Positions 1-40,615 of a stretch of 64,000 nucleotides of DNA are shown here, piece by piece (position 1 is the stretch's first letter; each line of letters opens with the position of its first letter). The notes beneath the pieces were generated by a model that was given only the letters and a program-made list of their open reading frames with translations, was not told the origin of the DNA and searched no databases. Location: the sequence record MK327930.1, one strand, 5' to 3'. A program made the position numbers and the translations under genes. The stretch comes from Escherichia phage EdH4.

Positions 1-479
1 GGCGGACGGAATGGGAATACTTCTCATTCTTATAACAATTCTCAAATATCGAGGCAGTGAGGCAAATTAATAGGTGAGGCCGTTCACATAGTGGCACAAC
101 ATTTGCAATCTATTTTGTGTGGGGGAATGAGAATACCTATCATTGTGAGAACTGTTATCATTACGGGCAATTTAACATAATACCCATTATGCGCACCACT
201 GGCGATACATACAGGGATTGATAACATGGGTTACTGTTTACGCACATAACAATTATATTTCTTACTATTTGTGTGGGATATAGTTAGCAGCCGATAGATT
301 AGATATTAACCTGCAGACTTCTGACCGTCCAGACGTCTAAACGCCCACACACCAAGGATTATACATACACTCCTGAATGTAAACAGGGCCGCAAAAATGC
401 TACCATACAAGCTTGTAAATTTTTCATGCAGCACTTGACAAAGAGGAGAAAAACTTGTCTGACATAATGTGACCTAACT

Positions 480-590
480 GACACAACATGACACTTTTAC
501 ACACCTATTAGTTTACACACTGGATTGTTTACATTTCTGATTGTTCACATGCTAACCATTTATATGATTGACTGTTTACACACCGATAAT
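480..590. repeat. Five spaced copies of a (T)GTTTACACA-like motif
   Basis: ttttacacacc, gtttacacac, gtttacattt, gttcacatgc, gtttacacacc at 15-25 bp spacing; resembles DnaA-box or iteron arrays. Confidence 0.5.
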
Positions 591-592
591 CA

Positions 593-843
593 GCCATGCC
601 ATTCGTTTGCATGACAATAATTATACATGACAATAATCGCACTGATTATAATTAGCATGACATAATATAAAAGCAGGGCAACTATTAGCAGATCTATAGT
701 TGCCTTGCTTGTTATGTCATGATTAACTAAATACAAGGCAACTATGATCTGATTAATAGTTTGCAGACAAACTATCACGGGGGTGATGGTTACTGCTTTT
801 ATATTATGTCGCGACTCCGTCGCGCCATGCCATTCGTTTGCAT
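593..843. repeat. 20-bp direct repeat GCCATGCCATTCGTTTGCAT (593-612, 824-843) flanking CATGACA(A)TAAT repeats and GGCAACTAT/ATAGTTGCC palindromes
   Basis: Exact 20-mer twice; 9-bp inverted repeat ggcaactat-N10-atagttgcc at about 677-704 plus further copies; operator-like or origin-like. Confidence 0.55.
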
Positions 844-1460
844 AGTTGCCTTATTGTTACGAATAAAACAATTGCATTGTTAATGATTTCTTATCTTTCT
901 CTTAGTCATCTAATGATTCCAGTCAGTATAGTAATGTACAGTAAACATTAGACGACTAAAGATTTCTCTGTTTATTATAACTCACCGTTATAATTTCGAG
1001 CTGTTTACGAAAAATGTTGACATCCTAGCCGATTTATGTTATGCAGTTTACACGAATAATTATTTTATGCAGGTATTGACTATTCCGTTATTCTATGGTT
1101 GGAATAAATACTTAGCAGGCTATAGACTGGTGAGCGTACGTAAATTCTGAGATCTGGCGGCTATAGTTATACTCGATTTTTCACGTAGAACACGCTTTTG
1201 TGGTTATGTAAGTGCATGACTTATAAAGATTTTTAGTTGTTGACAAGATATTGGAGATGTGCATCAGGTTAAAATTTGTGCAATAGCGGCATTACGTGCA
1301 ATTTTGGAAGGTAAAACGGGTAAAAATGGCCTTGCTACCACACAATGAAAAATTATGCAATAGTTATTTTCCATGTATATTTGTACAGTGTGTGGGATTG
1401 ATGGCTCGTCAATTATTCCACTTGCCAGGTAGGGCCGTTTATGGTAGGAAAAGAGAAGAC

Positions 1461-1485
1461 AAAAAGAAAGGGGCTTTAAGCCCCT
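1461..1485 (-). terminator. Rho-independent terminator ending the minus-strand early gene cluster
   Basis: Hairpin aggggctttaagcccct preceded on plus by an A-run (T-run on minus), just downstream of the stop of CDS 1505..1768. Confidence 0.6.
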
Positions 1486-1504
1486 GACCGTTCATCTTGT
1501 TGTA

Positions 1505-1768
1505 TTATTTGTTGCTCATCCAGTTTTCCCAAGCTGCCTGATAATCTGCCTCACTACGGCGGATCTCTTCTTGTTCTTCAAGTCGGATCTCTTCTTCCAG
1601 GTACCCCAAGATGTCAGCCTTTTTGGTCTGGCGTAGCATCCAGTCATCTTTTTTGCGGGTAAAGATCTTATAAGCTTTCTCGCAAACCTCTTTTTTGCTA
1701 CCTTTCTGGACTTCCAGAACACGATAAGCCATATATTGAACTAGTTTGAGCTGGTCAAGACGTTTCAT
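1505..1768 (-). CDS. Hypothetical small early protein
   Basis: 87-aa ORF co-oriented with neighbours; followed by terminator. Confidence 0.6.
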   Translation of the reverse strand: MKRLDQLKLVQYMAYRVLEVQKGSKKEVCEKAYKIFTRKKDDWMLRQTKKADILGYLEEEIRLEEQEEIRRSEADYQAAWENWMSNK

Positions 1769-1830
1769 GATGTTTTTCCTCTTTATGTGGTTTTTGTTTA
1801 GTGGGCCTTTTGGCCCGTGTCATTATCTTA

Positions 1831-2103
1831 TTACTTACGGCGGCAGAATTCAAGAGTTTTTAATTGATAATCTTCCTCAGCCTGGAGTACAACCGCCTCG
1901 ATCATTTCGTTGGCATTGTTGAAGCCATACCCTTTAGCGAACTCATCCGCACCACCTTCGTGATCATGTTCTGCGTTCATCGCTTCCACGAAATGGAATT
2001 CAAGATTATTGAGATAAGGGCTTGATGTTCCGTCCTCTTTTTCGATGAGATCCCAAATAGCATTAAAACGTGATTCGACTTCTTGATTAATCCAGCTTGA
2101 CAT
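1831..2103 (-). CDS. Hypothetical small acidic protein
   Basis: 90-aa ORF; promoter and 5' hairpin upstream. Confidence 0.6.
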   Translation of the reverse strand: MSSWINQEVESRFNAIWDLIEKEDGTSSPYLNNLEFHFVEAMNAEHDHEGGADEFAKGYGFNNANEMIEAVVLQAEEDYQLKTLEFCRRK

Positions 2104-2157
2104 AATGTTTTCCTCTCTTCTGGTTGTTGTGTGGGCACTTTTGCCCCTTCAAGATAA

Positions 2158-2186
2158 ATGTTACCCCACCACCTGGCAGATGTCAA
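2158..2186 (-). promoter_or_regulatory. Sigma70-like promoter (TTGACA-N17-TAACAT) followed by 5' hairpin
   Basis: Minus-strand TTGACA at 2181-2186, -10 at 2158-2163; hairpin gggcacttttgcccc at about 2133-2147 precedes the RBS. Confidence 0.5.
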
Positions 2187-2211
2187 CGGTTTTTATAGTT
2201 CTTATATGACA

Positions 2212-2256
2212 GGCAGGCCCGGTGATTGTCTCCCCCCGTCGCCAGGTGCCTGCCGT
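2212..2256 (-). repeat. GC-rich repeated element, copy C (inverted relative to copies at 11401 and 11555)
   Basis: 2212-2234 is the exact reverse complement of 11555-11577 (23 nt); 2234-2256 is a near reverse complement of 11401-11422. Confidence 0.7.
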
Positions 2257-2270
2257 GTAATAAGTATAAC

Positions 2271-2300
2271 AAAAAACAGGACCATTGCAAGCCCTGTTTT
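2271..2300 (-). terminator. Putative hairpin terminator (bidirectional-looking)
   Basis: aacagg-N12-cctgtt flanked by an A-run and a T-run, downstream of CDS 2315..2506. Confidence 0.4.
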
Positions 2301-2314
2301 CTAGTTAATAAGGA

Positions 2315-2506
2315 TTATATTTTTTCGCCTATGTAGTCCGGTCGGTTTTTCTCTGTCATGCGCTTTAGCAATTCTTGCATGTTACTTATGGCTTGTAGTG
2401 TATCCTCTTCCAGACTTGAATCAACATAATCAGGATCGTCTATGACCTTTCTATGATTATGATAACGCAGTACCGCCAATACCTTTCTAACTTGTTCAAC
2501 ATTCAT
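2315..2506 (-). CDS. Hypothetical protein
   Basis: 63-aa ORF co-oriented with neighbours. Confidence 0.45.
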   Translation of the reverse strand: MNVEQVRKVLAVLRYHNHRKVIDDPDYVDSSLEEDTLQAISNMQELLKRMTEKNRPDYIGEKI

Positions 2507-2655
2507 TTTTATCGCTCTTTAAAACAAGGTGCCAACCGTTTCTAGTAGATCACTGACCACCAGGACAATACTGATCAGCACATATCTAACCATAAGGGGA
2601 AAGAGCGCCAGCGATCCCGCCACAATCCCCAAGGTAATGATTATCTTTTTCACGG

Positions 2656-2940
2656 TTAACGGTTAACGTAAGCTTTACCGTTCACGGTTATGGGTAGATC
2701 CTCCAGGTCTGGATCTTCCTTAAGGTCGCGAGCAAGCTCACCGCACCGGATACCCTCGAATCCGTAGTACTCTGTTGTACCGTCATTAAAAGTTTTAGCG
2801 GCAAGGCATAAGCGATAAGTAACCCCGATTTGATTGACGGCATGGATATCCGTTAGATCAACCTCTTTTGCCAGCTCTTTAGCCATTACAGGCGCATTAA
2901 GTCCAACAACCAGGGCAACTACTGCGATCATCTTTTTCAT
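2656..2940 (-). CDS. Small secreted protein with N-terminal signal peptide
   Basis: MKKMIAVVALVVGLNAPVMA then a polar mature region with 2 Cys; RBS gaaagagga upstream. Confidence 0.6.
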   Translation of the reverse strand: MKKMIAVVALVVGLNAPVMAKELAKEVDLTDIHAVNQIGVTYRLCLAAKTFNDGTTEYYGFEGIRCGELARDLKEDPDLEDLPITVNGKAYVNR

Positions 2941-3031
2941 TGTGTCTATCCTCTTTCTGCTACGTTTAAGGCGGCAGTAACCGCCTGTTTATGATTTATT
3001 GGTTAATTTTCAGGTATCGCTATAAATTAAA

Positions 3032-3256
3032 CTATGCTGTACGCTCAACTATAACAACGGTTTGAGGGATCTCACCTTCCACCACTATCAAGGCCTTTTT
3101 CTGCGTGATGGATATCTTTACCCGTTGCAGCGTGGCGGTGAAGTCTTTCATTTCGTCACGTGGTGTTTTAGTGCAATGCCAGATCTCAGGCTTACCTATT
3201 TGCAAGCCGCGTAAAAATTCTGTTTTACCTGTCTTATTCGTGATCATTTGATTCAC
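3032..3256 (-). CDS. Hypothetical protein
   Basis: 74-aa ORF; AAGGTGA RBS-like upstream. Confidence 0.45.
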   Translation of the reverse strand: MNQMITNKTGKTEFLRGLQIGKPEIWHCTKTPRDEMKDFTATLQRVKISITQKKALIVVEGEIPQTVVIVERTA

Positions 3257-3257
3257 C

Positions 3258-3461
3258 TTAACCGATACCGTGGGAAGATAGGATCATGTTAGCCATAGTT
3301 GCAACCACTCCAACCGATAATGCCAGGCCAACTACTACAACCGTGAAAATTTTCTCTAACATGATTCTACCCTCATTAATGGGCGTTGCCTTATTGCCCC
3401 GCCCTACGAAATACAGTCTATCAAGTAATAAACTATTGTCAAGATTTATTTTACTTCCCAA
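3258..3461 (-). CDS. Hypothetical small membrane protein (start uncertain)
   Basis: 67-aa ORF with hydrophobic C-terminal segment VVVVGLALSVGVVATMANMIL. Confidence 0.35.
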   Translation of the reverse strand: MGSKINLDNSLLLDRLYFVGRGNKATPINEGRIMLEKIFTVVVVGLALSVGVVATMANMILSSHGIG

Positions 3462-3582
3462 ACGGAAAATTCACTACCTGGCGGAATCATCTTTTTAATC
3501 TTGTTTGCTGCTGCTACCAGATCCACGGCTTGTACTGTAATAATATAACCAATTGTCGAGGCTGTTGCGTTGAAAGTTTTCA
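3446..3582 (-). CDS. Hypothetical 45-aa protein (below ORF-track cutoff)
   Basis: ATG preceded by a GAGG RBS and the ggcgggaa..ttcccgc hairpin; MKTFNATASTIGYIITVQ... Confidence 0.35.
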
Positions 3583-3663
3583 TTAAATTACCCTCATTAA
3601 TGGCGGGAAGTATTCCCGCGCTATGTAGTACACTTTACCAGATTGTTGACTGTTGTCAAACTA

Positions 3664-3846
3664 TTTTAACGATAATCATCATATGCTTTATTGACCTGGC
3701 GAATATAACATTCAAAAGCTAGATCAATAGATTTATATTCACGGATATATTCACCATAGGAAACCACATACATTTCTATAGCTTCCTCATATGCGAGGAG
3801 AATAGAATCTAAGCCTACGATCTCAGTCTTTGCAATAATAGCCATG
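3664..3846 (-). CDS. Hypothetical 59-aa protein (below ORF-track cutoff)
   Basis: ATG at about 3846 with an agagga RBS; MAIIAKTEIVGLDSILLAYEEAIEMYVVSYGEYIREYK... Confidence 0.45.
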
Positions 3847-3920
3847 ATTTTTATCCTCTTTGTGGTTGGTGGGGCTTGTTGCCCCCTTTGATTTATATTC
3901 TACAGTCTTATAAGGTCATG

Positions 3921-4154
3921 TCAACTGTTTTCAAAAAATTTTTCTGCTGTAATATTTTTCCCGGTAGGGTTCGCTACTTTCAAAATTTTATCATGCACCG
4001 GACGCCCGAAAGAATAAGATCCGTATACAGTAAACCAATAATTGCCGTCAGGCTGTACTATTACCGCCGCATATGGTACGCCTTTTTCGTTTTTGCTGAC
4101 AAAATAGATCACATTGCCATTAATAGCCTCGGCGCGTTTAATTTGTTCCATCAT
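3921..4154 (-). CDS. Hypothetical protein
   Basis: 77-aa ORF. Confidence 0.55.
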   Translation of the reverse strand: MMEQIKRAEAINGNVIYFVSKNEKGVPYAAVIVQPDGNYWFTVYGSYSFGRPVHDKILKVANPTGKNITAEKFFENS

Positions 4155-4217
4155 GATGATTCACCTATCTTTATTTTTTCATAGTTTCAGGAGGGGGCCT
4201 TTTCGGCCCCGCCAGGT

Positions 4218-4502
4218 TTATTTATTGATAGCGTGCAGCGGGAAAGGTACGCCAGGTTGATAGATAACCTTTACAACCTCATCAGGACAAAAGAAATTGC
4301 AGAACTCACCGCAATAGGCCTCATCCTCTTTCAACTCTTCATCAACATACTCAAAAAAGTAGTCGATGCTTGGATAATCTTGCCCTGGGTTATAGTCAAC
4401 CATTGTCAGGACTAGTTCAAGATCGTTGCGTAGGATATGCATACCCGCTTTTAAGTATTTTGCTTCCATTTCCACTACATCGCCAACGGTAACAATAGCC
4501 AT
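4218..4502 (-). CDS. Hypothetical acidic protein
   Basis: 94-aa ORF; promoter-like TTGCAT-N16-GATAAT upstream at about 4560-4590. Confidence 0.55.
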   Translation of the reverse strand: MAIVTVGDVVEMEAKYLKAGMHILRNDLELVLTMVDYNPGQDYPSIDYFFEYVDEELKEDEAYCGEFCNFFCPDEVVKVIYQPGVPFPLHAINK

Positions 4503-5418: not shown

Positions 5419-5464
5419 AATTTACTTTATTGATGGCCCTAGAGTCAAGGCCATCTAAAAATAA
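5419..5464 (-). promoter_or_regulatory. Conserved 45-bp intergenic element, copy 1 (promoter TTGACT-N18-TAAATT with palindrome over the -35)
   Basis: tttactttattgatggccctagagtcaaggccatctaaaaataa; palindrome GATGGCC-N10-GGCCATC; near-identical to copies at 9135 and 9756. Confidence 0.5.
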
Positions 5465-5467
5465 ATT

Positions 5468-8772: not shown

Positions 8773-8846
8773 GTACTTTCTCCTTTCATGGTGTTAATAA
8801 ATTATCTTTATAGATGGCCCTGCAACCAGGACCACCGAAAAAATAA

Positions 8847-9092
8847 CTATTTCACAATGCCTACAAAACAGATCCCGCCTTCACCTATATAAGCAATATC
8901 GGTCACTTTATAACTTGTCAAGATCTGCTTATTTAGTTCATTAATAAAATCGGTCATTGCGTTGGTGTAGTTGTCTTCCGTGTCTAAGGCATAATCCCAG
9001 GTGTACACCTTTTTACGTCCGAAGCCTTTTACCATGATACGGGCGCTTTTGGTGTTGGTAGGGGCATAATATTTGGTGATTAGTGCTGCCAT
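8847..9092 (-). CDS. Hypothetical protein
   Basis: 81-aa ORF. Confidence 0.6.
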   Translation of the reverse strand: MAALITKYYAPTNTKSARIMVKGFGRKKVYTWDYALDTEDNYTNAMTDFINELNKQILTSYKVTDIAYIGEGGICFVGIVK

Positions 9093-9134
9093 GGTTTTAA
9101 CTCCTATGCATTAGTTCAGTGTTAACAGTATAAA

Positions 9135-9179
9135 GTTTACTTTATTGATGGCCCTGGTGTCAAGGCCATCTAAAAATAA
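9135..9179 (-). promoter_or_regulatory. Conserved 45-bp intergenic element, copy 2 (promoter TTGACA-N18-TAAACT with palindrome over the -35)
   Basis: gtttactttattgatggccctggtgtcaaggccatctaaaaataa; identical to the copy at 9756. Confidence 0.5.
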
Positions 9180-9181
9180 GC

Positions 9182-9523
9182 TTACTCGTTTTCTTCCAGC
9201 TCCGCAAGCTCTTCTTTTGCTTCTTCTAACTCTGTCTGTAATTCCTGGTATTCTTCATCGTCCTCAATATCCAGGCTGTCGATGTAGTCGCTAAATCCGC
9301 AGCGGTAAGCGATAGGATCTAGCTCCTTGAGGATACGCGACGGAAGAAAAGAAATGTTTCCGATCATAATTTCGCCGTAGATCTCGTCTAACCATTCATC
9401 ATAGTTTTCGTCGTACTTGTCCTCGTCGATTTCAAAGTTATCGATCTTATTCTCAAGGTCTGCGATCTGTTTTTTCAGTTCAGCGATCTGCATAGCTTTT
9501 TCTGAGGCGGTCATAGTAGTCAT
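9182..9523 (-). CDS. Acidic coiled-coil protein
   Basis: 113-aa ORF; heptad-like QIAELKKQIADLENKIDNFEID and an acidic C-terminus. Confidence 0.6.
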   Translation of the reverse strand: MTTMTASEKAMQIAELKKQIADLENKIDNFEIDEDKYDENYDEWLDEIYGEIMIGNISFLPSRILKELDPIAYRCGFSDYIDSLDIEDDEEYQELQTELEEAKEELAELEENE

Positions 9524-9722: not shown

Positions 9723-9755
9723 CTTTAAGCCTCCTTTTCCGCTCAACTGTGGTTA

Positions 9756-9800
9756 GTTTACTTTATTGATGGCCCTGGTGTCAAGGCCATCTAAAAATAA
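9756..9800 (-). promoter_or_regulatory. Conserved 45-bp intergenic element, copy 3
   Basis: Identical to copy 2; upstream of the small CDS 9603..9722. Confidence 0.5.
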
Positions 9801-9802
9801 AC

Positions 9803-10198
9803 TCAATAAGTTTTTAGTACTTTCCCGTCCAATCTGTCAAGCTGGATCTCGATAGCTGCAGAAAACCTATTGTAAACCACATCGCCCAGGGAGTCCAGCC
9901 AATCTATGACGTTATATACCTGCTCTTTATTCTTGCAAGTCCGGATCCGTTTCATTACGTAAGACGGATCAATATTAGCGCTCTCGTTGTTGTGGTCCTG
10001 CGCCTGGCCTGCTGCGCTAGTTATAGATTTTACAACCACCTGAAAGGGCTTTAAGGTGCCTTTTGCGTTCATCTCACGCGCTTTTGCGGCGCGGTTGTTA
10101 TATGTTACACAACGGCGGCAAATGTTGACCAAATGCATATCAATAATTTTTTCATCGTTTGCCAGTTCGTTCATGATGCGGCGTACGTTCTTATTCAT
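9803..10198 (-). CDS. Hypothetical protein
   Basis: 131-aa ORF. Confidence 0.6.
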   Translation of the reverse strand: MNKNVRRIMNELANDEKIIDMHLVNICRRCVTYNNRAAKAREMNAKGTLKPFQVVVKSITSAAGQAQDHNNESANIDPSYVMKRIRTCKNKEQVYNVIDWLDSLGDVVYNRFSAAIEIQLDRLDGKVLKTY

Positions 10199-11022: not shown

Positions 11023-11196
11023 CTATTTTAAATTATTTTTATGATAGAATCCACCTGCCGCCCCCCGCCAGGTTAACCACCATTTTTCGTACTCTTCTTT
11101 ATGTTCCAACGCTCCCGCCATAGCCTTTTCAACCAGGGCGATAGCCTCAGAGTCATTAATAGCTACATTTTCCAGGGGGATCATATTACCTTTCAT
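11023..11196 (-). CDS. Hypothetical 57-aa protein (below ORF-track cutoff)
   Basis: RBS gaggagg then ATG; MKGNMIPLENVAINDSEAIALVEKAMAGALEHKEEYEKWW... Confidence 0.45.
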   Translation of the reverse strand: MKGNMIPLENVAINDSEAIALVEKAMAGALEHKEEYEKWWLTWRGAAGGFYHKNNLK

Positions 11197-11354
11197 TTTT
11201 GTACCTCCTCTTCAATTGTTACCTATCCTGTAGCATAGGCCCACCAGGTTTACAAGCCTTCATTCTCCCCTACCTGGTCAGTTAGGTCCTGCCAGGCTGG
11301 CCCCGCCAGGTTGCAGCGGTTAGCGCATCAGGTTAGAAAAATTTTTTGAAAAGT

Positions 11355-11383
11355 GTTGACAGCGGCCCCGCCAGGTGGCACAA
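11355..11383 (+). promoter_or_regulatory. Plus-strand sigma70-like promoter TTGACA-N17-CACAAT pointing into a non-coding region
   Basis: No plus-strand ORF downstream; the GC-rich element begins about 18 nt after the -10. Confidence 0.45.
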
Positions 11384-11400
11384 TATACCTATCGAAAGGA

Positions 11401-11437
11401 CGGCAGGCACCGGTGACGGGGGAGACAACCACCGGGG
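11401..11437 (+). repeat. GC-rich repeated element, copy A
   Basis: cggcaggcaccggtgacgggggagacaaccaccgggg; related to copies at 11555 and 2212. Confidence 0.6.
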
Positions 11438-11500
11438 ATGGGCGCTGCATAAAATGAGAACGGTTATCATTATCATTTAAAAATTTATGCAAAAAAATCC

Positions 11501-11531
11501 TTGCTTTCTTTGTCCTGTGTGATACTATAAT
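11501..11531 (+). promoter_or_regulatory. Plus-strand promoter TTGCTT-N16-TACTATAAT
   Basis: Transcribes toward the AT-rich iteron region; no ORF downstream. Confidence 0.45.
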
Positions 11532-11554
11532 AACAAGCCGGGGCAACAGGGGCC

Positions 11555-11577
11555 GGGAGACAATCACCGGGCCTGCC
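11555..11577 (+). repeat. GC-rich repeated element, copy B
   Basis: gggagacaatcaccgggcctgcc; exact reverse complement of 2212-2234. Confidence 0.7.
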
Positions 11578-11699
11578 CGTTATTCTGCAAACGAGAATGA
11601 TTATCATTCAAAATTCTAAATGAGAACTCCTAGCATTTAATAAATTTAATTAGCACGCTAATTACCCTCCGTAACAATTTACTATAAAATAGTATCCAC

Positions 11700-12190
11700 T
11701 AAAATATTCCCATATAGAAATTTTAAAAATCCATTTCTGAAAACGAAAAATCGATTTCGTCCCCAAAAATTTCAGGTTGAGAGCCGGAACGATTTCCAGA
11801 AAATCCGATTCAGAAAACGAAAAACAGATCGAGTACTGAGAAATTTATCGAGAAAAATTTTCAGAAAATCCAAGCCCTGAAATGAAAAGTAGATCGAGTA
11901 CCTGGAAAGCTGCACCGCAACTTCAAGATAGCGGTTAGATTGTTACCATAGAAGGTCAAGGGTAAGTGGAGGAAGTTCTAGTAGAGAGAGGTTAGCATGT
12001 GTGGGAAATCTATAATGGTGGCCTGGAATATGGTGCAAACGATAGGATGAGTTATTCAGCTTGTCGCGCCTACTCTGAAAAATCCATTTTAGTTTTCGAT
12101 CCATTTTCTGATTTTCTAAGAATTTTAAAATATCCAGCCCGGTGAAATATCAAAAGGAGGAAATCCATTTTAGAAATCCCCCTTATACTT
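11700..12190. repeat. AT-rich non-coding region with iteron-like direct repeats (candidate replication origin)
   Basis: Three copies of a unit agaaaatcc-N-cagaaaacgaaaa-N-agatcgagtac at about 11720-11905, plus aaaatccatttt copies at about 12075-12180; no ORF on either strand. Confidence 0.5.
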
Positions 12191-39154: not shown

Positions 39155-40615
39155 ATGGATAGCAGAAGTTCAGAAATCATTGCCTCACAGAAAGATGATG
39201 CCCTGAGAATGTTGCAGGCTGCACGTATGTATCTCCTTGAAAAGCTGCCGTTTTATGGCACACTACTGTCAGGGTTGCAGTTCGTAGAAAACCACACATG
39301 GTGCTCCACCATGGCAACCGACCATAAACGCATCTACTACAGCCCTGAGTTCATTATGGGGTTGGCGGATGAGCGTAAAACCATTCTTAAAGCATCTCTG
39401 ACTGACAAGCAGTTTGAGATGGCTGAGGTTTTCTATTCCCCAAAATCTGTGAAAGAGGTGGCCTTTCTTCTGTCACATGAGGTGGGGCATATTATCTGTG
39501 ATCATCTGGTCCGTGGTAAAAGCTTTGAGCCGGAACTGTTCAATATTGCTTGTGATCACGTTATCAACACAGGTCTTGTGGTTGACTTTAGCAAGCCTCC
39601 TTGTGTTTTCTTCCCAAAGGGGAAAAGCACTGAGTTCGTAAAAGGTAAGCCTTTTGGCTTCTTAGCTAGTTGCTACTGCGACATGAAGTTTCATGGATGG
39701 ATTGCTGAGAACGTCTATGCAGTTCTTGATAAGCAAAGAGATCAGAATAACGGTAAAAGTAAGAGCGGCAAAGGTGAGAATTCTCAAGGAGATAAGCGAC
39801 AAACCGATGATCACATGAGCGGCAACGGTGGCACCAGCGATGATCTTGGAAAGGCTATGGGGTATGATCAGCCACAACCTGTAATCAGCCAATCTGATAA
39901 AGATCAGGCCATGCAGGACTCTGGTGATATGCTGGAGGCAGCAATGCAAGCGTCCGGAGGCCGTTGCCCTGAGGCGGTGCGTGAGTTTGTCAAGAACAGA
40001 GGTAAGCCTGTAATCAACTATATAGACATCATTAAGCAACGTATGTTGTCTAAAAGAAAGGCCGAACTGACCTACAGAAAACCTGGTCGCCGATCTGGGT
40101 CTTTGACCAGCACAATGCGAAAAGTTGGGGCTATAAACAAGAACCAGCACGTTATTGTTCCTGGTCGTAATCCGGAAAACACTATAGATATTGTGGTGGC
40201 TTTAGACGTTTCTGGCTCGATCTCTCAAAGAACTTTAAAGAAAATGTTCAATGAAATCACCGGATTGTGCAATCTGTATAAAGAGTTTAAGGTTACAATG
40301 TTCTGTTGGTCAACTGAGGTTGGAGAGGTTAAAGTATACACTCGCGGCAACATAGACGAGATGGTCAACTATGAGGTCCACTCAACATGGGGCACAACAG
40401 CTGCTTGCGTGTTCGAGTATCTGGATGCCAACATACCTAATGCAAAAGATGTCATCGTCCTGACCGACCTATACTTTGAGCATAACTTTGAACAAAAGGT
40501 TGTTGACAACAAGTGGAAAAAGTACGATACTCTATGGGTCCTCACTGAGGGGTATAATAAAAATTATATCCCGAGCTTTGGGAAAACTGTGGAATTAATC
40601 GAGTACGCTAAGTAA
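39155..40615 (+). CDS. Zinc metallopeptidase-like plus von Willebrand factor A domain protein
   Basis: HExxH in LLSHEVGHIICDH; VWA MIDAS motif VVALDVSGS; start trimmed to the ATG with a GGAG RBS. Confidence 0.7.
   Translation: MDSRSSEIIASQKDDALRMLQAARMYLLEKLPFYGTLLSGLQFVENHTWCSTMATDHKRIYYSPEFIMGLADERKTILKASLTDKQFEMAEVFYSPKSVKEVAFLLSHEVGHIICDHLVRGKSFEPELFNIACDHVINTGLVVDFSKPPCVFFPKGKSTEFVKGKPFGFLASCYCDMKFHGWIAENVYAVLDKQRDQNNGKSKSGKGENSQGDKRQTDDHMSGNGGTSDDLGKAMGYDQPQPVISQSDKDQAMQDSGDMLEAAMQASGGRCPEAVREFVKNRGKPVINYIDIIKQRMLSKRKAELTYRKPGRRSGSLTSTMRKVGAINKNQHVIVPGRNPENTIDIVVALDVSGSISQRTLKKMFNEITGLCNLYKEFKVTMFCWSTEVGEVKVYTRGNIDEMVNYEVHSTWGTTAACVFEYLDANIPNAKDVIVLTDLYFEHNFEQKVVDNKWKKYDTLWVLTEGYNKNYIPSFGKTVELIEYAK

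What the first reader, a model, noticed from the sequence alone, without database searches (positions are those of the whole stretch)
2212..2256. GC-rich structured element present in three copies, one inverted, always next to promoters
The 23-mer gggagacaatcaccgggcctgcc at 11555-11577 is exactly reverse-complementary to 2212-2234. The adjoining cggcaggcacc(g/t)g(t/c)gacggggg segment at 11401-11422 recurs inverted at about 2234-2256. On the minus strand the 2.2-kb copy sits about 27 nt upstream of a promoter's -35; the 11.4-kb and 11.55-kb copies follow promoters on the plus strand. Such conservation of a GC-rich element in an AT-leaning genome suggests a binding site for a phage regulator or a structured RNA module.
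Basis: seen in the sequence. Interest (0 to 1): 0.55.

Follow-up and report, generated by a model that had tools for sequence, protein, structure and literature searches.

The report
Conserved promoter-proximal phage RNA motif
The three GC-rich copies are real and belong to an undescribed structured RNA motif that sits at the very start of short transcripts in rV5-like phages and in unrelated uncultured phages; its job is unknown, but its build suggests that it acts on the transcribing RNA polymerase.

Summary
The window is a close relative of Escherichia phage HdK5 (rV5-like, Vequintavirus). A covariance model finds the element three times in the window (A 2209-2256 minus, B 11400-11445 plus, C 11538-11580 plus) and nowhere else in the 139-kb HdK5 genome. 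All three copies, including the 2.2-kb one, lie just downstream of a sigma-70-type promoter in the transcribed orientation.

The element is one member of a wider family. Unit C is syntenic in 361 phage genomes (Vequintavirinae, Stephanstirmvirinae, Aeromonas phages). The same motif occurs 3-8 times per contig in uncultured phages that share no other detectable similarity in the sequence sampled.

Three parts are shared:
- a short hairpin, often with a GNRA loop, whose stem covaries
- an exposed strand GGAGACAAnCACC
- 10 nt further on, a G-N8-Y-G box that matches the consensus pause pattern

Covariation, excess of G.U over A.C pairs and variable distance from the promoter favour an RNA, not a DNA site. 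Nothing in Rfam or the searched literature matches.

The function is not established. My best guess (about 0.35) is a cis-acting nascent-RNA plus pause module that modifies elongating RNA polymerase, in the manner of put, nut or ops. The main rival is a trans-acting small RNA or decoy.

The parts
2209..2256 (-). Copy A of the element. Read on the minus strand: outer stem P0 GGCAGGC (2254-2248) pairs with GCCUGCC (2218-2212); hairpin P1 is CCUG-GCGA-CGGG (2246-2235); the exposed core GGGAGACAAUCACC is 2234-2221; the pause-like box is GGGCCUGCCUG (2220-2210).
   Evidence: Covariance model hit of 74.3 bits, E 4e-14; exact 23-mer; fold z-score -2.9; alternative folds compared.
2263..2303 (-). Terminator-like hairpin (2303-2270) with an embedded sigma-70-type promoter, TTGCAA (2290-2285), 16 nt, TG-extended TATACT (2268-2263). 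The predicted start falls 1-3 nt before P0 of copy A.
   Evidence: Promoter and terminator scan; HdK5 annotates a terminator at 2274-2297. Related phages have a promoter at the same place with a different sequence: Murica TTGACT-17-TATTCT and SSBI34 TTGATT..TATCTT.
2158..2186 (-). Second promoter, TTGACA-17-TAACAT, 25 nt downstream of copy A. It drives the 90-aa gene at 1831-2103 (minus; phrog_7287, function unknown).
   Evidence: The layout promoter 1, element, promoter 2, gene is the same as in the uncultured phages.
11356..11384 (+). Promoter of unit B, TTGACA-17-CACAAT with TG.
   Evidence: conserved in all Vequintavirus loci fetched.
11400..11445 (+). Copy B: outer stem GCAGGC/GCGCUGC, hairpin CCG-GUGA-CGG, core GGGAGACAACCACC, then GGGGAUGGGCG.
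   Evidence: Covariance model hit of 54 bits, E 2e-9.
11501..11531 (+). Promoter of unit C: TTGCTT (11501-11506), 19 nt, TATAAT (11526-11531). An alternative reading is a TG-extended GATACT. The spacing is suboptimal and the start site is not mapped.
   Evidence: Read from the sequence. The TTGCTTTC..TAT(T/A)AT block is conserved across genera.
11538..11580 (+). Copy C, the ancestral 'unit 2' version: outer stem GGGCA/UGCCC, inner stem CCGG/CCGG enclosing the core GAGACAAUCA, then GGGCCUGCCCG.
   Evidence: Covariance model hit of 37.5 bits, E 1.4e-5. It is 80-90% identical over about 60-70 nt in distant genera. Folds.
11453..11471 (.). 19-bp dyad AATGAGAACGGTTATCATT downstream of copy B (family AATGAGA-N5-TMTCATT). 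It is a neighbour of the element, not part of the RNA motif proper.
   Evidence: Repeat family D4; pattern scan.
11590..11637 (.). Two further copies of the 19-bp dyad (11590-11608 and 11619-11637), downstream of copy C.
   Evidence: Perfect palindromes AATGAGAATGATTCTCATT occur in Hena1, DU_PP_I and phiWec179.
11713..11908 (.). Three iteron-like repeats of about 65-74 nt in the AT-rich remainder of the 780-nt non-coding gap.
   Evidence: Repeat family D2; equivalent repeats in Hena1, Seunavirus and Mydovirus loci.

Best explanation
SHOWN. The element is a transcribed, structured RNA motif at the 5' end of RNAs started by host sigma-70 RNA polymerase. It has four parts. (1) A short hairpin P1 of 3-6 bp, usually capped by a GNRA tetraloop or a GNR(N)A pentaloop; its stem sequence is free to change as long as pairing is kept. 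(2) Directly 3' of it, a near-constant unpaired strand GG(G)AGACAAnCACC. (3) Ten nucleotides further on, a box G-N5-G-C-N-Y-G that fits the consensus elemental pause pattern (G at -10, Y at -1, G at +1). (4) In the rV5-type copies, an outer stem P0 that encloses the rest. In the window, copies A and B have all four parts. Copy C keeps parts 2-4 and replaces P1 with a CCGG/CCGG stem around the core. I put the claim that it works as RNA on the promoter-sense strand at about 0.8.

INFERRED, and my committed mechanism (about 0.35). The module acts in cis on the RNA polymerase that has just made it. When the polymerase reaches the Y10/G11 pause, the hybrid covers the 10 nt after CACC. The conserved strand then lies in and just outside the RNA exit channel, and the hairpin has just folded. 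In that state the nascent RNA, alone or with a conserved host elongation factor, would change the elongation complex, for example making it resistant to pausing, terminators or roadblocks. HK022 put RNA, lambda nut and ops/RfaH work in comparable ways.

This would let transcripts from the upstream promoter read through the terminators that separate the small early-gene cassettes (copy A, and the cassettes of the uncultured phages). For B and C it would carry transcription through the protein-binding dyads into the iteron region.
For: Promoter link: all three window copies follow a promoter in sense. The 35 distinct copies in uncultured phages were retrieved with a pattern that required TATAAT 18-34 nt upstream, so that promoter is imposed by the search, not an independent finding. 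What the search did not impose is that this TATAAT usually sits directly after a terminator hairpin.

RNA structure: on a model-guided alignment of 61 distinct copies, 75.9% of cells pair against 67.2% in shuffles (0 of 500 shuffles reach the observed value). Eight of 11 pairs show changes on both sides. P1 is 95.6% paired. Sliding the partners gives at most 61%. There are nine distinct P1 stems; native strands form a mean of 4.1 contiguous pairs and non-native combinations 1.2.

Within Vequintavirinae, P1 changes conservatively: CCUG/CGGG, CCUG/CAGG, CUUG/CAGG. Its loops stay GNRA: GCGA, GUGA, GGAA, GGGA.

Strand: G.U/U.G 49 cells against A.C/C.A 13.

Pause-like box: G1 in 57 of 64 copies, G7 in 56, C8 in 56, Y10 in 60, G11 in 52. 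The pattern G1-N8-Y10-G11 is present in 48 of 64 copies in this register and in 0-1 copies in six neighbouring registers.

No phage-specific partner seen: tblastx of 125 kb of the uncultured phages against the whole HdK5 genome found one shared protein segment, matching a hypothetical ORF next to the terminase-like gene, and a tRNA-region match, nothing else.

Geometry: P1 ends about 23 nt before the pause position. In HK022 the put-sensitive pause lies 21 nt after stem II (PMC9378689).

Layout: terminator, promoter 1, element, promoter 2, gene, in both phage groups.
Against: No transcript, start site, pause or read-through has been measured; everything is sequence inference. The pause box overlaps the 3' strand of P0 in the rV5-type copies, so its conservation there may be structural.

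At least eight of the uncultured-phage copies (about a quarter) are followed within 30-60 nt by a good, usually bidirectional terminator with no gene downstream, like a discrete small RNA. B and C in the window point against all neighbouring genes, so read-through there has no obvious coding purpose.

If antitermination were processive, one copy per operon would be enough, yet these phages carry 3-8 per contig. The element has no sequence similarity to put. It has no boxA, and the T6 that RfaH needs in ops is variable here.

RNAalifold found no consensus structure on plain MAFFT alignments. For A and B the thermodynamic optimum is not P0+P1. The covariation counts come from an alignment fitted to the model, which leans towards it.
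Confidence: 0.35

Rival explanations
1. Trans-acting small RNA or decoy. The exposed 13-mer is a seed that pairs with a conserved host RNA, or it mimics a target and so soaks up a host small RNA or RNA-binding protein. The hairpin protects the 5' end.
For: B and C are gene-less units pointing against the neighbouring genes. At least eight uncultured-phage copies are promoter, element, 25-50 nt of A/U-rich sequence, then a terminator, which is the usual build of an enterobacterial small RNA. The core is unpaired in both candidate folds. The strand is C/A-rich; from my own recall, unchecked, that is the kind of sequence GcvB-type seeds recognise, and prophage-encoded anti-sRNAs are known in E. 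coli.
Against: Most copies sit in front of a second promoter and a gene with no terminator in between. No complementary site of 9 nt or more, other than the elements themselves, exists in 125 kb of the uncultured phages or in the HdK5 genome. No host target was identified; BLAST against E. coli genomes cannot see such short matches. It does not explain the conserved G-N8-Y-G box.
Confidence: 0.25
2. Origin-associated transcripts (applies to B and C only). The 780-nt non-coding gap is a replication origin. The two promoters fire towards the dyads and iterons, and the G-rich structured RNA primes replication or opens the origin by transcription, as at the T7 or T4 origins or at ColE1.
For: Two tandem promoters, an array of 19-bp dyads, an AT-rich stretch and three iterons make up a syntenic block, and the promoter/RNA part of that block is matched in 361 phage records. 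The same dyad also occurs in the 459-bp terminal repeat. The origin of rV5 is undefined (PMC3606486).
Against: The same motif stands in front of ordinary small genes (copy A) and occurs 3-8 times per contig in the uncultured phages, so it is not origin-specific. No replication data exist. GC skew in rV5 only follows gene orientation.
Confidence: 0.12
3. Generic 5'-end stabiliser. A stem-loop at the extreme 5' end protects early RNAs from RNase E and RppH; the rest is incidental.
For: P0 or P1 starts within about 2-8 nt of the predicted start in most copies.
Against: A stabiliser needs only a stem. It does not explain a near-invariant 13-nt unpaired strand and a conserved downstream box shared by phage groups that show no other similarity in the sequence sampled.
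Confidence: 0.1
4. Mobile promoter cassette. The similarity reflects spread of a promoter, terminator and leader module by recombination, as proposed for the PeSL cassettes of T4-type phages. The core would be conserved because the spread is recent, or because it serves as a recombination site.
For: The repeated layout terminator, promoter, element, promoter, small gene with different genes inside. A, B and C share 23-45-nt near-identical blocks within one genome.
Against: Flanks and stems have diverged with compensatory changes while the core is kept, which indicates selection and not recency. Unit C is syntenic across subfamilies.
Confidence: 0.1
5. Double-stranded DNA site for a phage or host regulator.
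For: Proximity to promoters. The core is highly conserved and non-palindromic, as some monomer sites are.
Against: Stem covariation with G.U bias on one strand. GNRA loops. The distance from the -10 to the core ranges from about 24 to 55 nt (sequences). No shared candidate binder was found.
Confidence: 0.06

Closest known systems
HK022 put RNA (putL/putR), a factor-independent antitermination and antipausing RNA
   Same: A promoter-proximal structured nascent RNA in phage early transcripts. It needs no phage protein. A pause lies a fixed short distance downstream of the last stem: 21 nt for putL (PMC9378689), about 23 nt here.
   Different: put is about 70 nt with two long stem-loops. This element is about 45 nt with one short hairpin plus an unpaired conserved strand. 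There is no sequence similarity: the best match in HK022 has 4 mismatches in 17 and lies in a coding region. Activity is untested.
Lambda/P22 nut sites (boxA plus boxB) and rrn leader boxB-boxA
   Same: A hairpin with a GNRA-type tetra- or pentaloop whose stem varies, next to a conserved single-stranded box. A few copies per genome, downstream of early promoters, on both strands.
   Different: The order is hairpin then strand (as in rrn, not as in lambda). The strand GGAGACAAnCACC is unlike boxA (CGCUCUUA, from memory). No N-like protein was identified.
ops element / RfaH recruitment site (GGCGGTAGnnTG)
   Same: The box after the core ends in (A/U)GCNYG, like the 3' half of ops, and fits the consensus pause pattern. 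Some copies read GGGGTAGCGTG, 10 of 11 matches to ops positions 2-12.
   Different: The T at ops position 6, which from memory is required by RfaH, is T in only a minority of copies. The rV5 copies read GGGCCUGCCUG. ops works as non-template DNA, whereas this element shows RNA covariation upstream of the box.
PeSL promoter/stem-loop cassettes of T4-type phages
   Same: A repeated early promoter plus stem-loop module at the borders of small early genes.
   Different: PeSLs, as I recall them, have no conserved transcribed strand or GNRA hairpin. Here the conserved part is downstream of the start site.
Phage-encoded small RNAs and anti-sRNAs (for example prophage AgvB)
   Same: A short phage RNA with an exposed C/A-rich strand, and in some copies its own terminator.
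   Different: Most copies are leaders of genes and not stand-alone RNAs. No target is known.

Membership tests
Any Rfam 15 family | Score at or above the family's gathering threshold | tested here: not met
   No match at gathering thresholds in the 64-kb window. Only chance-level matches (E at least 0.39) in 11150-11950. Nothing relevant in 8 homologous loci.
tRNA / tmRNA | ARAGORN-detectable cloverleaf | tested here: not met
   No genes found in the window.
HK022 put RNA | Sequence or structure homology to putL/putR (two stem-loops, about 70 nt) | tested here: not met
   Best match of the 17-mer core in the HK022 genome has 4 mismatches and lies in a coding region. The element has one short hairpin and is about 45 nt.
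HK022 put RNA | Acts in cis on RNA polymerase (beta' zinc-binding domain) to suppress pausing and termination | not testable with these tools
   Needs in vitro transcription or structural work.
Lambda-type nut site | boxB hairpin with a GNRA-like loop | tested here: met
   P1 loops are GCGA, GUGA, GGAA, GGGA, GAAA and the pentaloops GAACA, GAGCA, GGACA, GUACA, GAGAA. The commonest uncultured-phage type has AGAA or AAAA, which is not GNRA.
Lambda-type nut site | boxA consensus next to boxB, and an N-type antiterminator gene | tested here: not met
   The conserved strand is GGAGACAAnCACC, not boxA. No N-like protein was searched for systematically, and none is shared between the two phage groups.
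ops / RfaH site | 12-mer GGCGGTAGnnTG with an invariant T6 | tested here: not met
   At the equivalent position, T is in the minority (8 of 64 at position 5 after CACC). Only the 3' pause half is conserved.
Consensus elemental pause site | G at -10, pyrimidine at -1, G at +1 | tested here: met
   48 of 64 distinct copies in one register, and 0-1 in six neighbouring registers. Actual pausing was not tested.
Intrinsic terminator | GC-rich stem directly followed by a U tract | tested here: inconclusive
   rV5-type copies have a good stem (P0) followed by a weak U tract (UGUCAUAU, GUUAUUCU). The uncultured-phage copies have a strong U tract but no adjoining stem. The terminator scan does not call any of the three.
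Hfq-type trans-acting small RNA | Discrete RNA with a seed, an A/U-rich site and its own terminator | tested here: inconclusive
   Met by at least eight uncultured-phage copies. Not met by the majority, by copy A, or clearly by B and C.
ToxI / pseudo-ToxI antitoxin RNA | Tandem 36-nt ToxI-like repeats at the phiTE escape locus | tested here: not met
   The phiTE escape locus is at 106,714-106,772 (PMC3475682). The homologue of this region in phiTE is at 39,565-39,792. The element is not a tandem array.
Fur box (concerns the neighbouring 19-bp dyad, not the element) | Match to GATAATGATAATCATTATC or the 7-1-7 form TGATAATnATTATCA | tested here: inconclusive
   By eye, the B dyad matches 16 of 19 and the C dyad 15 of 19 in a shifted register. 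The in-register family consensus is TGAGAAT-N-ATTCTCA, one change per half-site from the 7-1-7 box. No scoring matrix or binding data were available.

The most novel reading that the evidence does not exclude
The motif defines a new and widespread class of nascent-RNA elements: a small hairpin, a 13-nt strand and a programmed pause. Lytic phages of proteobacteria would use it to reprogram host RNA polymerase without a phage-specific protein. That would make it a second, unrelated solution to the problem solved by HK022 put, and in the rV5 group it may be coupled to firing of the replication origin.
Probability: 0.25. Interest if true: 0.8.

Novelty: new variant of a known kind. Interest (0 to 1): 0.62.

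Why it matters
rV5-like phages and their relatives are widely isolated and are used in E. coli, Salmonella and Klebsiella phage therapy work. Their early regulation and replication origin are nevertheless unknown. According to the rV5 genome paper they depend entirely on host RNA polymerase.

A compact RNA module of about 45 nt that recurs at transcript starts in phage groups with no other detectable similarity is likely to touch something universal in the host, such as the polymerase, an elongation factor, the ribosome or an RNase. If it changes elongation, it would be a rare factor-independent regulator and a handy synthetic-biology part.

Even if the function turns out to be different, the motif gives a testable handle on three things: two conserved non-coding RNA genes, the 0.8-kb non-coding hub of these genomes, and a likely mis-annotated ORF.

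Tried and rejected
- Rfam at gathering and at E-value thresholds, on the window and on 8 homologous loci: nothing.
- tRNA and tmRNA scan: nothing.
- HK022 genome scanned for the core: no similarity.
- The pseudo-ToxI idea (the reverse complement loosely resembles ToxI): rejected, because the phiTE escape locus is elsewhere and the sense strand is the structured one.
- BLAST of copy B against 5,426 E. coli genomes: no match, but the search is blind to matches under about 20 nt.
- Scan of 185,579 bacterial genomes with the promoter-anchored pattern: 9 scattered single hits in unrelated taxa, taken as chance. The element is therefore not a bacterial chromosomal motif.
- RNAalifold on MAFFT alignments of unit-2 homologues and of the uncultured-phage copies: no consensus structure, because loop lengths shift the register. 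I used a covariance-model alignment and my own stem tables instead.
- Search for complementary targets of 9 nt or more in the phage genomes: none.
- Search for a protein shared by the two phage groups: one segment matching a hypothetical ORF next to the terminase-like gene, plus a tRNA-region match.
- Sigma-70-dependent pause idea (GACAAT as a -10-like hexamer): rejected, because the last base is A, C or T.
- Pairing with the 3' end of 16S rRNA (GGAG...AUC): rejected, because the variable position breaks it.
- PHROG and Pfam on the genes flanking copy A and on the small plus-strand ORF upstream of unit 1 in other genera: only families of unknown function, including DUF7170.
- Literature: no paper in the library holds the core sequence in a phage context. 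The rV5, CB7 and HIDEN-SEQ papers do not describe it.

Full report
WHAT THE WINDOW IS. The window matches Escherichia phage vB_EcoM_HdK5 (MK373780.1; Vequintavirus, rV5-like) from position 1. Identity is 99.7% over 1500-4500 and 97-98.6% over the first 14 kb. In HdK5, genes from 1.5 kb to about 99.7 kb are all on the minus strand. HdK5 1-459 is repeated exactly at 138870-139328. That is a 459-bp direct terminal repeat, so window position 1 is a physical genome end.

CHECK OF THE OBSERVATION. The 23-mer is exact at 2212-2234 (-) and 11555-11577 (+), and none of 100 shuffles gave a match. The 17-mer core GGGAGACAAYCACCGGG has three copies. The CGGCAGGCACC..GACGGGGG arm of the 11.4-kb copy recurs inverted at 2234-2256 with two substitutions and one extra G. 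Mismatch scans and a covariance model find no fourth copy in the window or in the remaining 75 kb of HdK5.

Copy A lies 25 nt upstream of the TTGACA-17-TAACAT promoter (2186..2158). It also lies directly downstream of TTGCAA-16-TATACT (TG-extended; 2290..2263), which is embedded in the terminator 2303-2270. Read in the direction of transcription, all three copies therefore sit at the start of a predicted RNA.

SURROUNDINGS. B and C lie in a 780-nt gap (about 11152-11925) with no credible ORF. The ORF that HdK5 annotates at 11312-11590 (-) runs straight across both units, and many related genomes annotate nothing there. B and C point rightwards, against all neighbouring genes. Each is followed about 30 nt later by a 19-bp dyad of the family AATGAGA-N5-TMTCATT (11453, 11590, 11619). 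An AT-rich stretch with three repeats of about 65-74 nt follows (11713-11908). The same dyad occurs at 10-28 and 126-144, inside the terminal repeat.

RELATIVES, GROUP 1. The gap is syntenic far beyond Vequintavirus. With the window as BLAST query, distant genera retain only the stretch around copy C and its dyad, at 80-90% identity. These include Seunavirus, Certrevirus, Mydovirus, Henunavirus, Phapecoctavirus, Justusliebigvirus and Aeromonas phages. With a Seunavirus query, 361 phage records match.

All show two tandem promoter-RNA units followed by dyads and iterons. Unit 2 is the homologue of copy C. Its core varies slightly: GCGAGACAAUCACC, GGAGUACAAAACACC, and GAAGCAAUCACC in W70 and A7_1; TH18 is more divergent. 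Unit 1 is a different GC-rich RNA in the other genera. Its 3' part, GGAAGGUGGAUCGCCGG, looks like a diverged core. In Vequintavirus, unit 1 is copy B. Salmonella phage SSBI34 carries an A-type element in the unit position.

RELATIVES, GROUP 2. Pattern scans of IMG/VR and of metagenomes found the same core in uncultured phage contigs of about 42-47 kb and in one 215-kb contig, with 3-8 copies each and 35 distinct copies in all. The metagenome pattern required TATAAT 18-34 nt upstream and fixed the core, so both of those features are imposed by the search in this set.

The sampled sequence of these contigs shows no other DNA similarity to rV5. The only protein-level matches are one segment matching a hypothetical ORF next to the terminase-like gene and a tRNA-region match. 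Their proteins resemble those of phages of various proteobacteria.

Their standard cassette is: terminator hairpin, TATAAT, about 7 nt, element, U-rich run, TGTAAC..TGTAA repeats, a second full promoter (TTTACA-17-TATAAT), a short leader and a small gene. At least eight copies are instead followed by a bidirectional terminator at a convergent gene junction. Copy A of the window has the same layout of promoter 1, element, promoter 2, gene.

A scan of one genome from each of 185,579 bacterial species gave only nine scattered single hits, which I take as chance.

ANATOMY. Comparison across both groups gives the following picture.

- P1 is a hairpin of 3-6 bp ending 0-3 nt before GAGACAA. Nine different stems occur: CCUG/CGGG, CACUA/UAGUG, CACUA/UGGUG, CACUAG/UUGGUG, CACCG/CGGUG, CCG/CGG, CGG/CCG, CUA/UAG and ACC/GGU. 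Native strand pairs form a mean of 4.1 contiguous pairs, and mixed combinations 1.2.
- In the window, A has CCUG-GCGA-CGGG and B has CCG-GUGA-CGG. Other Vequintavirinae have CCUG-GCGA-CAGG, CUUG-GGAA-CAGG and CCUG-GGGA-CAGG. The changes are conservative or compensatory, and the loops stay GNRA.
- P0 is an outer stem in the rV5-type copies. It is GGCAGGC/GCCUGCC in A, GGCGGG/CCUGCC with a G.U pair in SSBI34, a version with a bulged U in Murica, and AUAGCGGG/CCCGCUAU, AUGGCG/CGCUAU or AUGGCG/CGUCAU in unit 2.

A covariance model built from seven A-type sequences retrieved 86 copies, 61 of them distinct. On that alignment 75.9% of cells pair against 67.2% in shuffles (0 of 500 shuffles reach the observed value). 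Eight of 11 pairs show changes on both sides. P1 is 95.6% paired and P0 66%. Slid controls reach at most 61%. G.U/U.G cells outnumber A.C/C.A 49 to 13, so the promoter-sense strand is the one under structural constraint.

Three caveats apply:
- The alignment was fitted to the model.
- RNAalifold found nothing on plain MAFFT alignments.
- For A and B, the minimum-energy fold does not contain P1. It extends P0 by pairing CC(U)GG with CCGGG around the core: -22.2 and -20.1 kcal/mol, against -16.6 and -8.1 for P0+P1.

Copy C and five uncultured-phage copies have only this second arrangement. In both arrangements the core GGAGACAAnCA stays unpaired. I regard that as the robust feature.

THE DOWNSTREAM BOX. 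After CACC, 64 distinct copies from both groups share G1 (57), G7 (56), C8 (56), Y10 (60), G11 (52) and U15 (60). The combination G1-N8-Y10-G11 is present in 48 of 64 in this register and in 0-1 copies in each of six neighbouring registers. From my knowledge of the NET-seq literature, this is the consensus elemental pause pattern (G at -10, Y at -1, G at +1), and it is also the 3' half of ops. In the rV5-type copies the box overlaps the 3' strand of P0, so part of its conservation there may be structural. In the uncultured-phage copies, which lack P0, it cannot be.

INTERPRETATION. Four things are shown:
- the repeat is real and non-random
- it is transcript-proximal
- it is conserved in two phage groups that share almost nothing else in the sequence sampled
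- its variation follows RNA pairing rules on the sense strand

I give about 0.8 to the claim that it functions as RNA. The function itself is inferred. The motif combines a small GNRA-type hairpin, a near-invariant exposed strand and a pause-like site about 23 nt after the hairpin. It stands directly after promoters, in genomes whose small early genes are separated by terminators. No shared phage protein turned up. The nearest precedents are the elements that load onto, or modify, the elongating polymerase: HK022 put (pause 21 nt after stem II; PMC9378689), lambda nut and ops.

I therefore commit, at about 0.35, to a cis-acting nascent-RNA and pause module that alters elongation. For copy A it would allow read-through of downstream terminators. 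For B and C it would carry transcription through the dyad-bound region into the iterons.

The strongest rival (0.25) is a trans-acting small RNA or decoy. It is favoured by the gene-less, terminator-bounded copies and by the orientation of B and C. The other rivals are origin priming or activation for B and C only (0.12), a plain 5' stabiliser (0.10), a mobile promoter cassette (0.10) and a duplex DNA operator (0.06).

MEMBERSHIP. The element is not a member of any Rfam family, nor of put or ToxI. It fails the ops definition at T6. It meets the boxB-like loop criterion of nut only in part and lacks boxA. So it resembles these systems in layout, not in ancestry.

NOVELTY. No paper in the searchable library contains the core sequence in a phage context. 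The rV5 genome paper only marks a 'non-coding' box and leaves the origin undefined. I rate the element as a new variant of a known kind (promoter-proximal regulatory RNA of phages). I give a 0.25 chance that it is a new class of polymerase-modifying RNA.

Noticed in passing
window 10-28, 126-144, 143-162, 11453-11471, 11590-11608, 11619-11637: A 19-bp dyad family, AATGAGA-N5-TMTCATT, which is a perfect palindrome AATGAGAATGATTCTCATT in Hena1, DU_PP_I and phiWec179. It occurs both in the terminal repeat and downstream of units B and C. It is one change per half-site away from the Fur-type 7-1-7 box, and two copies match the 19-bp Fur consensus at 15-16 of 19 in a shifted register. It is probably the operator of a dimeric DNA-binding protein (host Fur or a phage protein).
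   Followed up: partly
window 1-459 (HdK5 1-459 = 138870-139328): An exact 459-bp direct terminal repeat, so window position 1 is a physical genome end. Window 1-1468 has no annotated gene and is full of short direct and inverted repeats (for example 593-612 = 824-843, and 659-676 inverted at 793-810). It probably corresponds to the intergenic region of about 2 kb that tolerated no transposon insertion in Bas54 (bioRxiv 10.1101/2025.11.20.689424).
   Followed up: partly
window 11713-11908: Three iteron-like repeats of about 65-74 nt, each with GAAAA(A)TTTT-type and TCGATTTT/AAAATCGA-type palindromes. Equivalent repeats occur in other genera. This is a candidate replication origin or another protein-binding array.
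   Followed up: partly
L019 1040-1130, L017 1085-1190, L152 590-700 (unit 1 of other genera): A second conserved GC-rich RNA candidate upstream of unit 2: ..CGCCACCCCACGGCGAAAAGGCGGGGCUAAC.., which could form a pseudoknot, followed by a hairpin and then GGAAGGUGGAUCGCCGG. In Vequintavirus it is replaced by copy B. There is no Rfam match.
   Followed up: partly
window 11312-11590 (-): The ORF that HdK5 annotates as HdK5_00029 (hypothetical protein) overlaps units B and C on the opposite strand. Many related genomes annotate nothing there. It is probably a spurious gene call.
   Followed up: partly
window 2263-2303 (-); L199 and L200 about 250-290: A promoter embedded in a terminator hairpin: the -35 lies in the loop or 3' arm and the -10 just after the U tract. 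The same coupling of terminator and promoter precedes nearly every element in the uncultured phages.
   Followed up: partly
window 4205-4221, 11299-11315, 11364-11380; also 2165-2175: A GGCCCCGCCAGGT(G/T) / GCCAGGTGG motif recurs in or next to promoter spacers (repeat family D12). CCAGGT-like words cluster at 11230-11380 upstream of unit B. This may be another regulatory site.
   Followed up: no
window 5419-5467, 8800-8848, 9134-9182, 9755-9803: A 49-nt repeat family (D1), up to 98% identical, that contains a hairpin GATGGCCCTGGTGTCAAGGCCATC overlapping TTGAC-type promoters of early genes. It is a repeated promoter/stem-loop cassette reminiscent of the PeSLs of T4-type phages.
   Followed up: no
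L149 351-542, L152 292-558, L156 291-557, L016 1208-1402 (other genera): A small plus-strand ORF (63-88 aa; DUF7170 in phage 4MG) lies just upstream of unit 1, in the same orientation as the RNA units, in a region where all other genes are on the minus strand. It is absent from the window. It is a candidate partner of the dyad or of the RNAs.
   Followed up: partly
L163 about 1236-1337 (215-kb metagenome contig ERZ650304.5-NODE-5): Two copies of the element face each other across one hairpin, GCATCCTATAATTTATAGGATGC. Their transcripts would be mutually complementary over the hairpin. The same locus encodes a class I tyrosyl/tryptophanyl-tRNA synthetase-like protein.
   Followed up: no
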